A DNA stretch of 64,000 nt from an uncultured Nitrososphaerota archaeon (GTDB lineage Archaea > Thermoproteota > Nitrososphaeria > Conexivisphaerales > DTJL01): NCBI GenBank assembly GCA_963842885.1, contig CAWJIE010000004.1, positions 160,001 to 224,000 of the forward strand, in the 5' to 3' direction. The stretch's first letter is position 1, and the number at the start of each line of letters is the position of its first letter. A program made the translations under genes and the position numbers. The notes beneath the pieces are model-generated. The model had not been told where the DNA came from. It worked only from the letters and a program-made list of their open reading frames with translations, and made no database searches. This document shows, in pieces, positions 2,530 through 57,326 of this stretch.

Positions 2530-2643
2530 GGGCCTGTAGCTCAGCCAGGTAGAGATTGACCTCGCCTAGAGCGGCTGGCTCTTACGGCACCGATCGGTGC
2601 TGGGGAAACCAGTAGGTCGGGGGTCCGAATCCCTCCAGGCCCG
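2530..2643 (+). tRNA. tRNA-Lys(CUU) with two introns: 22/23 (2553-2569, 17 nt) and 37/38 (2585-2607, 23 nt)
   Basis: Removing both inserts gives the cloverleaf GGGCCTGTAGCTCAGCCAGGTAG|AGCGGCTGGCT-CTT-A|ACCAGTAGGTCGGGGGTCCGAATCCCTCCAGGCCCG; BHB central helices AGGT/GCCT and CTCT/GGGG with 3-nt bulges. Confidence 0.92.
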
Positions 2644-22467: not shown

Positions 22468-22565
22468 GGGCCCGTAGCTCAGCCAGGTAGAGCGCCGGGC
22501 TTTTATGGCCGACCGCGGTCAAAGCGACCCGGGTGTCTCGGGTCCGATTCCCGACGGGCCCGCCA
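22468..22565 (+). tRNA. tRNA-Lys(UUU) with canonical 37/38 intron (22506-22526, 21 nt); CCA encoded
   Basis: Cloverleaf GGGCCCG...CGGGCCCGCCA; BHB helix CTTT/AAAG with bulges TAT and CGA. Confidence 0.95.
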
Positions 22566-23689: not shown

Positions 23690-23787
23690 GCCCAAGTCGT
23701 ATAGCCCGGCCTAGTATGTCCGCCTGTCACGCGGACGACGCGAGTTGGTCCAAGACCACGCGAATTCAAATCTCGCCTTGGGCGCCA
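23690..23787 (+). tRNA. tRNA-Asp(GUC) with a non-canonical T-arm intron at 53/54 (23745-23764, 20 nt); CCA encoded
   Basis: Acceptor GCCCAAG/CTTGGGC, anticodon arm TCCGC-CTGTCAC-GCGGA; strict hBHBh': GA-CGCG-AGT-TGGTC...GACCA-CGCG-AAT-TC. Confidence 0.93.
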
Positions 23788-34676: not shown

Positions 34677-35230
34677 TTGATCGAAAATAAGAGCCATGGT
34701 GGAATCGCAGGGACTTCAGGAAGCTCTTTGACGACCTTGACAAGGAGCCGGAGGACATTCTCGAGATGTTTGAGAAGACCTTGAAGTCGTTCGAGAATTT
34801 TCCCGCGGACAGCGAGTTCGAAGGCTCATTCTTCTACGGGTTCTCCATAACGCAGGGACCTGAAGGCAAGCCCGTCATCAGGGAATTTGGAAACGTCAAG
34901 CCGTCTGGTCGTTCCATCTCCAGGTCGGACACTCGTGAACCCCTGGTGGACACGGTGTACGACCGCAAGCACAATGAAGTCAGAGTGGTGGTCGACATGC
35001 CCGGGGTCGACCCAAGGGAAGTCGTAATCTCCATTCACCAGCGTAGTGTCCGCGTACGTGCCTCCGACGGCGACCGAAGATACGAAACGAGCGTCCCGCT
35101 CGACGTCCCCGTCGAAGGGAAGCTCCTCAGGAAGACCTTCAATAACGGCGTCTTGGAGCTGACCTTGCGGGCCAAGCCCTTGCGCCGAGGTCGCAAGGGC
35201 CCGCGAACTGGAGCCGTTCCGTCTTCGTAG
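34677..35230 (+). CDS. hsp20: Archaeal small heat-shock protein Hsp20; probable indel near 34690
   Basis: 'FYGFSITQGPEGKPVIREFGNV', 'REPLVD', 'DMPGV', 'FNNGVLEL'; upstream 'EPWWNRRDF' frame is cut off from the TTG start. Confidence 0.88.
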
Positions 35231-35238
35231 CGATAACC

Positions 35239-35246
35239 TTTTTATC
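35239..35246 (+). promoter_or_regulatory. Probable TATA box of tRNA-Tyr (predicted TSS about 35270)
   Basis: TTTTTATC centred about 27 nt upstream of G35270. Confidence 0.55.
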
Positions 35247-35279
35247 GGGAGCTCGTGGAGCTTCAAACCGGTCCCGCGT

Positions 35280-35461
35280 CCCGCGGTAAGAACCTCCCTT
35301 CAGGGGGCTCCCGCAGGCTCAGCCTGGTAGAGCTTCCGACATGAGCGGTTGCGACCGTTCGTGGGAGATGCTGTAGTGGTTGGCTGTGGCTGACCCGTCC
35401 AGCCTGCCAGGCCTACACAGAAACCGGAGTGTCGCAGGCTCAAATCCTGCCCGCGGGACCA
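35280..35461 (+). tRNA. tRNA-Tyr(GUA) with three introns: 9/10 (35289-35316), 30/31 (35339-35369), 37/38 (35377-35422); CCA encoded
   Basis: Spliced product CCCGCGGTA|GCTCAGCCTGGTAGAGCTTCCG|GCT-GTA-G|ACCGGAGTGTCGCAGGCTCAAATCCTGCCCGCGGGACCA with the C1-G72/A73 Tyr identity; each insert has a 4-bp helix flanked by 3-nt bulges. Confidence 0.92.
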
Positions 35462-35512
35462 ACATAGCTCCCTAGGCTGGGCCACGATTCGAAAGGCGAG
35501 GTCAAAGGGTGG

Positions 35513-36118
35513 TCAGGAGATGACCAGAAAGACGAAGATGAGCTCGTCAAAAAGGACGTGCGAAACCAGGACGGGGAAGAGGTTTCCCAGCCTGTTGAAC
35601 ATATATCCCCAGAAGAGGCCACCGATGAGCGCCACCAGCATCAGGGAGGGGTTGAAGGTGGAGACGTGAATCATAGTGTATAGAGCGCTCGTCAACAGTA
35701 AGGCCATGTTCGGCGAAACTGTGGTGTTGAGGTGCCGCTGAATGAATCCCCTCCAATACAGCTCCTCAGAGGGGCCGATGGGGAAGAGGAGGGCGGCCGA
35801 TATGAAAGTGATGGGTGTGCTTCCTCGGAGCTGGTACACCCAGTTGACCTGCTGCGAGAAACCGGCGAAGCCCTTGACGATCTGGAACCCTCCCCAGAAG
35901 AAGGCGTAGATGAGCAGAGCGCATGCGACGCCTATCAGAAGGTCTTTCGCCGTGACCCTGATCTTCATTGAAGAGAAGCGGATGAGCGAGAGGGAGAGGA
36001 GTATCAGCGCTGACACCGTTATCATGGGCCAGAAACCTCCGAGCACGGGGTCGTTGAAGAGGAAGAACCAGAGGACGAAGGGCACGGGGAGGGTCAACAC
36101 TTCATAGCTAATCTTCAT
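35513..36118 (-). CDS. CPBP (CAAX/Abi) family intramembrane glutamic protease
   Basis: 'SEELYWRG', 'YTMIH', 'SHVLFD'. Confidence 0.88.
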   Translation of the reverse strand: MKISYEVLTLPVPFVLWFFLFNDPVLGGFWPMITVSALILLSLSLIRFSSMKIRVTAKDLLIGVACALLIYAFFWGGFQIVKGFAGFSQQVNWVYQLRGSTPITFISAALLFPIGPSEELYWRGFIQRHLNTTVSPNMALLLTSALYTMIHVSTFNPSLMLVALIGGLFWGYMFNRLGNLFPVLVSHVLFDELIFVFLVIS

Positions 36119-36159
36119 GGTTCTCCCCACCAAGGTCCTCCGGTGCAGTGTTCAATAAA

Positions 36160-56931: not shown

Positions 56932-57011
56932 ACGGCACGGCTGTCCACCTCTCCCTGCGCAGAGGAAGGCGGGGGAATCGGCCATCGGTGACCCTGCATT
57001 GTGAGAAGGGC

Positions 57012-57326
57012 GGCAGCTCCCGTAGTTTTCCCGAGCCAACCACTGCTCCGGCGAAGCCCGCGAATCCCCCACGTAGGCCCAGCAGCGTCACTACCCCGAC
57101 TTAGAGCTGCTCCCTCCCGGGCCTGACTCATTTCGCCGGTTCACGGGTGGAACCCTTCCTTCGAAGGGCCCTTCCCCCTTCGTAACGACCCGCTGAGGCG
57201 CGGGTTCAGCTTCCGGTGCCTGCCGGAAACAGGGGCCGAACAGGGTTAACCTACGGGTTACTGGCTCCTGCGTATAGCCGGTTTCAGGTACGGGGGACGG
57301 CTGGCCCCCCAACCCTACCCACCGCC
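57012..57326 (-). ncRNA. Archaeal SRP (7S) RNA, about 315 nt
   Basis: Helix-8 SRP54 motif GTCAGGCCC-GGGA-GGGAGCAGC; 5' GGCGGT pairs with 3' GCTGCC; Alu-like 5' domain; TATA-like TTTAATTA about 25 nt upstream. Confidence 0.88.

What the first reader, a model, noticed from the sequence alone, without database searches (positions are those of the whole stretch)
35280..35461. tRNA-Tyr(GUA) split into four exons by three introns, including a 9/10 site
Seen: exons of 9, 22, 7 and 36 (+CCA) nt separated by 28-, 31- and 46-nt inserts, so introns make up more than half the gene. Motifs are GCGG-TA^A...CCGC-AG^G (9/10), AG-CTTC-CG^A-[10-bp hairpin]-GGAG-AT^G-CT (30/31) and CTGT-AG^T...ACAG-AA^A (37/38). 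The anticodon sits on a 7-nt micro-exon. Known: triple-intron tRNAs are rare and reported mainly from Thermoproteales; I do not recall 9/10 among common sites.
Basis: partly seen in the sequence, partly recalled or inferred. Interest (0 to 1): 0.85.

Follow-up and report, generated by a model that had tools for sequence, protein, structure and literature searches.

The report
Three-intron tyrosine tRNA gene
This is a real tyrosine tRNA gene of a soil/peat archaeon that is cut into four pieces by three small protein-spliced introns, a known but rare gene layout, here accompanied by a conserved leader that looks built to hold the tiny first piece in place.

Summary
Window 35280-35461 (+) holds exons of 9, 22, 7 and 36 (+CCA) nt split by introns of 28, 31 and 46 nt at positions 9/10, 30/31 and 37/38. 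Joining the exons gives a canonical tRNA-Tyr(GUA) with C1-G72 and A73. ARAGORN and Rfam miss the unspliced gene.

All three introns have the 4-bp helix flanked by 3-nt bulges used by archaeal splicing endonuclease. Their helices are kept by compensatory changes across 28-38 relatives. The genome encodes alpha-like and beta-like EndA subunits, RtcB and RNase P RNA. No second tRNA-Tyr was found in this 87%-complete assembly.

The layout is shared by the whole family (9 of 9 genomes) and by 27 species representatives across GTDB. It is a new member of a known kind.

Two extras. An 8-11 bp leader complementary to the tRNA 3' end occurs in 28 of 28 genes with the 9/10 intron and in 0 of 21 without it. 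I read it as a clamp; this is inferred. Bathyarchaeia-labelled relatives carry five introns, whereas the reviews I read state a maximum of three.

No RNA data exist, so splicing itself is inferred.

The parts
35235..35246 (+). Promoter-like AACCTTTTTATC (TATA-type box)
   Evidence: Conserved in all family members shown. Its last T lies 22-24 nt before the leader GG in 5 of 5 family sequences that I measured by eye. The start site is inferred from recalled archaeal promoter geometry and was not mapped.
35270..35279 (+). 5' leader GGTCCCGCG+T, of which 9 nt are complementary to the tRNA 3' end CGCGGGACC (positions 67-75)
   Evidence: a leader:3'-end helix of 8-11 bp in 28 of 28 genes with the 9/10 intron, against 3-6 bp in 10 of 10 without; 11 more genes without the intron lack it (by eye); the leader pairs with the 3' end in the MFE of 28 of 28 precursors and in the window's centroid structure.
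35280..35288 (+). Exon 1, tRNA positions 1-9 (CCCGCGGTA)
35289..35316 (+). Intron 1 (28 nt) at 9/10, relaxed HBh'-type motif. Its CCGC pairs with exon G4-G7; it has an internal hairpin and no outer exon helix.
   Evidence: H helix 4 of 4 bp in 26 of 28 genes, outer helix 0 bp in 28 of 28. H 98.2% paired, hairpin 94.6% paired, with 3 of 4 pairs showing changes on both sides.
35317..35338 (+). Exon 2, positions 10-30 (D arm plus the 5' strand of the anticodon stem)
35339..35369 (+). Intron 2 (31 nt) at 30/31, BHB with a 10-bp inner hairpin and a 2-bp outer helix
   Evidence: H 4 of 4 bp in 26 of 26 genes. H 100% paired, and 6 of 6 hairpin pairs show changes on both sides.
35370..35376 (+). Exon 3, positions 31-37, a 7-nt micro-exon with anticodon GTA
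35377..35422 (+). Intron 3 (46 nt) at the canonical 37/38 site; the outer helix is the anticodon stem
   Evidence: H 4 of 4 bp in 27 of 28 genes, outer helix 5-6 bp. H 99.1% paired.
35404..35412 (+). Segment CTGCCAGGC inside intron 3, complementary to D-loop/D-stem bases GCCTGGTAG (35322-35330)
   Evidence: helix 1: 96.3% of cells paired over 36 distinct sequences. One pair switches C:G to U:A in 7 sequences. Slid controls give 29-49% paired.
35423..35461 (+). Exon 4, positions 38-73, plus an encoded CCA

Best explanation
This is the functional, apparently single-copy tRNA-Tyr(GUA) gene of a Nitrososphaeria archaeon. Public records carrying the same genus' gene are labelled Conexivisphaerales, and DNA holders are peat and soil metagenomes.

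Inferred pathway. The gene is transcribed from a TATA-type promoter as a roughly 190-nt precursor with a roughly 10-nt leader. Three introns at 9/10, 30/31 and 37/38 are cut out at bulge-helix-bulge-type motifs by a two-subunit (alpha/beta) splicing endonuclease. The exons are joined by RtcB, and RNase P removes the leader.

Inferred order. Intron 2's central helix uses positions 25-28. Positions 27-28 also belong to the anticodon stem, which serves as the outer helix of intron 3. Intron 2 should therefore leave before intron 3.

Inferred role of the leader, about 50% likely. Intron 1 can form its motif only if exon bases G4-G7 pair with the intron rather than with the 3' acceptor strand. The leader pairs with the 3' end (positions 67-75). 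This frees exon 1 for the motif and keeps the 9-nt exon tethered to the tRNA body during cutting and ligation. Exon 1 then replaces the leader in the acceptor stem.

What is shown: the sequence anatomy, the conservation and covariation, and the presence of the enzymes. What is inferred: transcription, splicing, the order of events and the clamp role.
For: - **Product.** The exons joined by coordinates fold into a canonical tRNA-Tyr with a 7-bp acceptor stem, C1-G72, A73 and anticodon GTA.
- **Missed when unspliced.** ARAGORN and Rfam do not call the unspliced gene.
- **Conservation.** The layout is present in 9 of 9 genomes of the family and in 10 of 401 sampled genomes of the class. A GTDB-wide scan found 27 species representatives.
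- **Spliced relatives.** 26 of 28 unique relatives' genes gave ARAGORN tRNA-Tyr after removal of their predicted introns.
- **Motifs.** Central helix 4 of 4 bp in 26 of 28 genes for intron 1, 26 of 26 for intron 2 and 27 of 28 for intron 3.
- **Covariation.** Intron 2 hairpin: 6 of 6 pairs with changes on both sides. Intron 1 hairpin: 3 of 4 pairs. 96-97% of cells are paired against 29-60% when the partners are slid.
- **Enzymes in the same genome.** An alpha-like EndA above the TIGR00324 cut-off, a beta-like EndA, RtcB (575 bits) and RNase P RNA (190 bits).
- **No other tRNA-Tyr.** ARAGORN's second 'Tyr' is tRNA-His(GUG): G1-C72, C73, G-1 and a canonical intron. blastn-short finds no other copy.
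- **Clamp.** An 8-11 bp leader:3'-end helix in 28 of 28 genes with the 9/10 intron, against 3-6 bp in 10 of 10 without, and none in 11 further genes without it, including four that carry the 30/31 intron.
- **Folding.** In MFE folds the leader pairs with the 3' end in 28 of 28 precursors, exon 1 pairs with it in 0 of 28, and intron 1's central helix forms in 21 of 28.
- **DNA support.** Contigs from three metagenome runs carry the intact three-intron gene.
Against: - **No expression data.** No RNA run holds the locus, so no mature or intermediate tRNA has been seen.
- **The window's own fold does not show intron 1's helix.** It is one of 6 of 28 precursors whose MFE lacks that helix. Locally its intron 1 prefers to pair with exon 2, and its hairpin has an A.C mismatch.
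- **Introns 2 and 3 rarely appear in MFE folds.** In full-length folds the central helices form in 1 of 26 (intron 2) and 0 of 28 (intron 3) precursors. The motifs rest on comparative evidence, not on thermodynamics.
- **Intron 1 is a relaxed motif.** It has no outer helix (0 bp in 28 of 28).
- **Incomplete assembly.** At 87% completeness a second tRNA-Tyr cannot be excluded.
- **Weak points of the clamp idea.** The 3' end never varies, so there is no true covariation, only wobble changes in L032 and L046. The leader partly repeats the acceptor strand and could be a duplication relic. One intron-less tRNA in this genome (C5:2863-2936) also has an 8-bp leader:3'-end match. The genes are related, so the counts are not independent.
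Confidence: 0.85

Rival explanations
1. There is no intron 1. The tRNA would start at the internal CCCGCAG (35310), giving a two-intron gene, and the upstream CCCGCGGTA would be leader.
For: Intron 1 ends in CCCGCAG-GCTCAG, which resembles the mature 5' end. BLAST aligned other genera from query position 31 for this reason.
Against: That reading gives an A.C mismatch in the acceptor stem and lacks U8 and A9 (sequence). In other genera the corresponding bases are CCCGTAA, which cannot make an acceptor strand. The 9/10 model gives a perfect cloverleaf in all 13 three-intron genes tested, and its helices covary.
Confidence: 0.03
2. The locus is a decaying pseudogene or a chance arrangement of tRNA-like pieces, and the working tRNA-Tyr lies in the unassembled 13% of the genome.
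For: The assembly is 87% complete. Standard finders miss the gene. There are no RNA data.
Against: Exons are nearly invariant while introns diverge with compensatory changes, from genus to class level. Genomes of 95-99% completeness in the family carry only this form. A promoter-like box is conserved at fixed spacing.
Confidence: 0.04
3. The three-intron gene is real, but the leader's match to the 3' end has no role in splicing. It would be a relic of a duplication of the 5' end that accompanied the gain of the intron, or a generic leader-trailer pairing.
For: The leader repeats the acceptor strand CCCGCG(G). The intron's 3' end also resembles it, giving three CCCG copies in a row. An intron-less tRNA in this genome shows an 8-bp leader:3'-end match. 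There is no strict covariation.
Against: The match extends beyond the repeat into GGT, which pairs with A73-C74-C75 and is not a copy of tRNA sequence. It is kept in 28 of 28 genes across lineages whose flanks and introns have otherwise diverged. The two substitutions seen (L032, L046) are wobble-compatible. A neutral relic would be expected to decay.
Confidence: 0.4

Closest known systems
[quoted passage not shown]
   Same: One tRNA gene interrupted by three short BHB-type introns, one canonical and two non-canonical. Processing depends on a broad-specificity (alpha-beta)2 endonuclease.
   Different: Different isoacceptor and phylum-level lineage: Nitrososphaeria from peat and soil rather than hyperthermophilic Thermoproteales. 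One intron sits at 9/10, leaving a 9-nt first exon. The layout is old and conserved rather than a recent lineage-specific burst. A leader complementary to the 3' end accompanies the 9/10 intron.
Split and tri-split tRNAs of Nanoarchaeum equitans and Caldivirga maquilingensis (PMC4033280 and PMC4390854, passages read)
   Same: Sequences outside the mature tRNA pair to hold tRNA pieces together so that the endonuclease and ligase can act. 30/31 is also a split site of tRNA-Lys(CUU) (PMC3218864).
   Different: Here all exons lie on one strand behind one promoter, so splicing is in cis. The leader pairs with the tRNA's own 3' end, not with another transcript, and it is not part of the BHB.
Circularly permuted tRNA-Tyr(GUA) of Thermofilum pendens, joined at 59/60 (PMC3218864)
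   Same: The same isoacceptor is disrupted at a non-canonical site in an archaeon of the same broad group. 59/60 is also an intron site in relatives of this gene.
   Different: The window's gene is not permuted and has no 59/60 intron.
Multi-intron nuclear tRNAs of the red alga Cyanidioschyzon merolae (PMC3728597)
   Same: Up to three BHB-type introns, including D-stem sites. RT-PCR there showed an ordered removal of introns, which I only infer here.
   Different: Eukaryotic nucleus, and experimentally verified. No leader clamp is described in the passages I read.

Membership tests
Archaeal endonuclease-spliced (BHB-type) tRNA intron | Two 3-nt bulges separated by a 4-bp helix (strict hBHBh' or relaxed hBH/HBh'/BHL), with cuts after the second bulge base | tested here: met
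   the 4-bp helix is complete in 26 of 28 (intron 1), 26 of 26 (intron 2) and 27 of 28 (intron 3) genes. Intron 1 is relaxed (no outer helix). Intron 3 relies on the anticodon stem. Searches show covariation.
Archaeal endonuclease-spliced (BHB-type) tRNA intron | Removing the introns restores a canonical cloverleaf | tested here: met
   for the window. for 26 of 28 unique relatives; 2 were not resolved by the script.
Archaeal endonuclease-spliced (BHB-type) tRNA intron | The host encodes a splicing endonuclease of a type that accepts relaxed motifs, plus an RtcB ligase | tested here: met
   two PF01974+PF02778 proteins. One matches the catalytic repeat and passes TIGR00324. The other matches the structural repeat and, weakly, the beta-subunit models. 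RtcB. Subunit assembly and specificity were not tested.
Archaeal endonuclease-spliced (BHB-type) tRNA intron | Spliced RNA product observed | not testable with these tools
   No RNA run holds the locus.
tRNA-Tyr (archaeal/eukaryal type) | Anticodon GUA, C1-G72 pair and A73 discriminator (identity set recalled from general knowledge) | tested here: met
   Cloverleaf.
Split, tri-split or permuted tRNA | Pieces encoded at separate loci or in permuted order | tested here: not met
   All four exons are colinear within 182 nt on one strand.
Intron-encoded C/D box guide (as recalled for the Haloferax tRNA-Trp intron) | C (RUGAUGA) and D (CUGA) boxes flanking a guide | tested here: not met
   Reading alignment A1 by eye: no C box. 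A CTGA occurs in the window's genus only and is not conserved.

The most novel reading that the evidence does not exclude
The precursor of this tRNA-Tyr is built so that it does not fold as a cloverleaf. Each exon segment is held by a dedicated non-tRNA partner: the 3' acceptor end by the 5' leader, exon 1 by the tail of intron 1, and the D loop by a conserved segment of intron 3. This stages the removal of the introns and keeps a 9-nt exon from being lost. On this reading the leader clamp is an unreported cis-acting device that makes introns inside the 5' acceptor/D region tolerable. It would also help explain why tRNA-Tyr could accumulate up to five introns in Bathyarchaeia-labelled relatives, above the stated maximum of three.
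Probability: 0.4. Interest if true: 0.7.

Novelty: new member of a known kind. Interest (0 to 1): 0.5.

Why it matters
- **Annotation.** Standard finders (ARAGORN, Rfam tRNA model) miss this gene. ARAGORN instead mislabels a tRNA-His as Tyr, so automated annotation of these peat and soil archaea would report a wrong tRNA set.
- **Age of the layout.** Heavy tRNA fragmentation is not confined to hyperthermophilic Thermoproteales. The same intron sites are kept across Nitrososphaeria-labelled and Bathyarchaeia-labelled genomes.
- **Testable leads.** A leader clamp tied to the 9/10 intron, an intron 3 segment that pairs with the D loop, and relatives with five introns are concrete questions about how far a tRNA gene can be broken up and still be processed.

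Tried and rejected
- **RNA evidence.** No RNA holder was listed by the look-up of sequencing runs. Read laying on four DNA runs confirmed only that the DNA exists. One joint (35339 to 35418, one contig, side 23, run X4) is most likely another organism's tRNA and was not used.
- **Thermodynamic folding.** Folding the window's precursor or local pieces did not reproduce the BHBs of introns 1-3 as MFE structures. I therefore rest the motifs on comparative counts.
- **Literature on 9/10.** The slash cannot be searched. 'positions 9 and 10' gave nothing relevant.
- **More than three introns in print.** Searches for 'four introns' and 'five introns' with tRNA terms returned only the C. merolae paper, where the phrases count introns per region, not per gene.
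- **Leader pairing and Bathyarchaeota in print.** Searches on leader pairing and on Bathyarchaeota tRNA introns found no description of the clamp or of these genes.
- **Papers not available.** PMC1643844 and PMC1852824 are not held. The title search listed no Sugahara 2008 or Fujishima 2010 paper, only papers citing them. Supplements of the tRNAscan-SE 2.0 paper, which list Thaumarchaeota introns, are closed and may already contain a 9/10 intron.
- **Class-wide pattern search.** Intron-less matches can also be tRNA-Phe or tRNA-His; G055 proved to carry a GTG anticodon. Only the intron-bearing matches were used.
- **Rejected models.** A leader copy serving as the real acceptor strand was rejected because it is truncated to CCCGC(G) in the window's family. 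A C/D guide in intron 3 was rejected because there are no boxes (by eye).

Full report
**What is in the sequence.**
Window 35280-35461 (+) reads as follows:
- exon 1: CCCGCGGTA, 9 nt
- intron 1: 28 nt
- exon 2: 22 nt
- intron 2: 31 nt
- exon 3: GCTGTAG, 7 nt
- intron 3: 46 nt
- exon 4: 36 nt, followed by an encoded CCA

Exons joined by coordinates in a script give a 77-nt sequence that ARAGORN calls tRNA-Tyr(gta). It has a 7-bp acceptor stem starting with C1-G72, and discriminator A73. The unspliced gene is invisible to ARAGORN and to Rfam at the gathering threshold. Rfam at E<=10 over 35200-35520 returned only one chance hit. The gene is also not among the 35 Rfam tRNA matches of the whole assembly. 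The locus lies between a 154-aa ORF ending at 35230 (+) and a 206-aa ORF at 35513-36133 (-). The two short ORFs that overlap the gene are most likely spurious.

**Is it the only tRNA-Tyr?**
The window is G000:C4:160001-224000 of a 2.03-Mb assembly with 11 contigs and 87% completeness. ARAGORN in intron mode lists 49 genes, including one 'tRNA-Tyr' at C4:381628-381717. On inspection that gene has G1-C72, C73, an encoded G-1 and a canonical 16-nt intron that leaves anticodon GTG. It is tRNA-His with the intron misplaced. blastn-short with the spliced sequence finds only the locus itself and, as the next best match, tRNA-Phe at C3:360530-360616. No second tRNA-Tyr was found, but 13% of the genome is missing.

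**Relatives.**
- A DNA search of 41 related genomes found the full 182-nt layout at 90-95% identity in 4 of 4 genomes of the genus.
- Reading the loci showed that the other four genomes of the family (three further genera; G006 has two copies) also have all three introns. Their intron 1 is 20-22 nt.
- Ten unique order-level genes from families f2 and f4 have only the canonical intron.
- An exact pattern for exon 1, a 9/10 insert and exon 2 found 27 species representatives among the 185,579 species of GTDB. Their record titles read Bathyarchaeota/Bathyarchaeia, Nitrososphaerota/Thaumarchaeota, Conexivisphaerales (two records identical to genus members), Geothermarchaeales and one Nitrosopumilales MAG.
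- In an even sample of 401 genomes of the class, the 9/10 insert was seen in 10 genomes: 9 of 9 in family f1 including the window, and 1 of 2 in family f9. That pattern allows inserts of at most 30 nt and exact exon sequences, so these counts are lower bounds.
- Ten further tRNA-Tyr genes of other families have other combinations and never a 9/10 intron: canonical only in 3, canonical plus a T-loop intron in 3, and 30/31 plus canonical in 4.
- A complete 1.6-Mb genome of the largest family (f7) has only the canonical intron.

**Are the introns real splicing substrates?**
I parsed 28 unique genes that carry the 9/10 intron, out of 36 parsed with 8 duplicates.
- **Central 4-bp helix.** Complete in 26 of 28 genes for intron 1, 26 of 26 for intron 2 and 27 of 28 for intron 3, always flanked by 3-nt bulges at the proposed cut sites.
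- **Intron 1.** Inner hairpin but no outer helix (0 bp in 28 of 28), that is the relaxed HBh' type.
- **Intron 2.** Inner hairpin of 4-10 bp and a 2-bp outer helix.
- **Intron 3.** The anticodon stem serves as the outer helix.
- **Counts on MAFFT alignments, intron 1.** Central helix 98.2% paired; first four hairpin pairs 94.6% paired, with changes on both sides in 3 of 4 pairs; slid controls 30-60%.
- **Counts on MAFFT alignments, introns 2 and 3.** Intron 2 central helix 100% paired, with changes on both sides in 6 of 6 hairpin pairs. Intron 3 central helix 99.1% paired. Slid controls 29-49%.

After removing the predicted introns, 26 of 28 genes gave ARAGORN tRNA-Tyr.

Against this, single-sequence folding is unhelpful. 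In full-length MFE structures, intron 2's helix appears in 1 of 26 precursors and intron 3's in 0 of 28. The window's own precursor is one of 6 of 28 that lack intron 1's helix.

**Machinery.**
The genome encodes two proteins with both endonuclease domains.
- A 183-aa protein matches the catalytic repeat and passes TIGR00324.
- A 193-aa protein matches the structural repeat and, weakly, the beta-subunit models.

This is the two-subunit arrangement that the Yoshihisa review assigns to Thaumarchaeota and links to relaxed motifs. RtcB lies at C4:47449-48756, right next to the beta-like gene, and RNase P RNA is present.

**The leader.**
Directly upstream of exon 1 the window has GGTCCCGCG+T, the complement of CGCGGGACC (positions 67-75, including encoded C74 and C75).
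- The longest leader:3'-end helix is 8-11 bp in 28 of 28 genes with the 9/10 intron and 3-6 bp in 10 of 10 order-level genes without it.
- The 11 further genes without it, four of which carry the 30/31 intron, also lack the segment, by eye.
- Among 33 other tRNAs of this genome the value is 2-6 bp, with one exception of 8 bp at C5:2863-2936.
- In MFE folds of leader-containing precursors, the leader pairs with the 3' end in 28 of 28 and exon 1 does so in 0 of 28. Intron 1's central helix forms completely in 21 of 28 and has 3 of its 4 pairs in one more.
- The window's MFE and centroid both show the leader:3'-end helix.
- The conserved TATA-like box ends 22-24 nt before the leader's GG in the five family sequences I measured. 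In the outgroups a similar box sits about 24-25 nt before C1. By recalled archaeal promoter geometry the transcript would therefore begin at the clamp, and the clamp would be essentially the whole leader.

My reading is inferred. The leader occupies the 3' acceptor strand so that G4-G7 can pair with the intron, and it tethers the 9-nt exon during cleavage and ligation. Exon 1 then displaces it, and RNase P trims. The rival reading is a neutral relic of a duplication, and I cannot exclude it: the 3' end never varies, so only wobble substitutions (L032, L046) speak for selection.

**Order of splicing (inferred).**
Intron 2's central helix uses positions 25-28, and positions 27-28 also belong to the anticodon stem that intron 3 needs. 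Intron 2 should therefore go first. The tRNAscan-SE 2.0 paper describes such dependencies in general terms.

**Comparison with what is known.**
- Reviews and the tRNAscan-SE 2.0 paper state that archaeal tRNA genes have up to three introns, mostly in Thermoproteales, and that Thaumarchaeota also have multiple non-canonical introns (passages read).
- The Caldiarchaeum genome paper reports three multi-intron tRNAs, none of them Tyr.
- 30/31 is a known split site, and 59/60 is the join of the permuted tRNA-Tyr of Thermofilum pendens.

The window's gene is therefore a new member of a known kind.

**Noticed beyond the window.**
- **Five-intron relatives.** Ten unique Bathyarchaeia-labelled genes carry five introns (9/10, 30/31, 37/38, 53/54, 59/60), each giving ARAGORN tRNA-Tyr after removal. 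By alignment L039 has five and L031 four. L043 and L045 have four. The two T-arm introns are 98.4% paired, with 6 pairs changed on both sides. My searches found no report of more than three introns in one tRNA gene.
- **Intron 3 pairs with the D loop.** The canonical intron carries a segment complementary to D-loop bases 15-22. It is kept in 36 distinct sequences (96.3% paired) and shows a C:G to U:A switch in 7 sequences. It is also visible in the additional families and in family f7. Its role is unexplained.

**Verdict.**
The observation and the interpretation hold. This is an ordinary kind of object in an unusual lineage, with two conserved accessory features that deserve an experiment.

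Noticed in passing
L022, L023, L026, L029, L032, L034, L040, L042, L044, L047 (public MAG contigs labelled Bathyarchaeota/Bathyarchaeia); also L039, L031, L043, L045: These tRNA-Tyr genes have five introns (9/10, 30/31, 37/38, 53/54, 59/60), i.e. six exons as short as 6-7 nt. Others have four. The reviews I read give three as the maximum for an archaeal tRNA gene.
   Followed up: partly
window 35404-35412 pairing with 35322-35330; the same columns in alignment A1: The canonical intron of tRNA-Tyr carries a conserved segment complementary to the D loop (positions 15-22). It covaries with the D-loop C/T variant, across the class and in Bathyarchaeia-labelled genomes, including genes with no other intron. 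Its function is unknown.
   Followed up: partly
G000:C4:381628-381717 (-), outside the window: ARAGORN in intron mode calls this tRNA-Tyr(gta), but it is tRNA-His(GUG) with G-1, C73 and a canonical 16-nt intron. This is an annotation trap.
   Followed up: yes
G000:C4:47449-48756 and C4:48808-49389 (L049:1210-1791), outside the window: The RtcB ligase gene lies directly upstream of the beta-like splicing endonuclease subunit on the same strand, so the pair may be co-transcribed.
   Followed up: no
G000:C5:2863-2936 (-), outside the window: An intron-less tRNA-Ala-like gene (G3.U70) has an 8-bp match, including one G.U, between its leader and its 3' acceptor end. It is the only other such case among the 33 tRNAs checked.
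   Followed up: no
window 2530-2643, 22468-22565, 23690-23787: Other tRNA genes in the window are 95-114 nt long, so they also carry one or more introns. I did not analyse their intron positions.
   Followed up: no
G006:C13:5071-5242 compared with G007:C4:39439-39610: G006 has a second tRNA-Tyr copy on a different contig whose exon 1-intron 1-D-arm stretch (47 nt shown) is identical to the G007 gene's. This may be bin contamination or a recent transfer.
   Followed up: no
window 57011-57324 (-): Archaeal SRP RNA (Rfam, 127 bits), which confirms that the window is archaeal.
   Followed up: no
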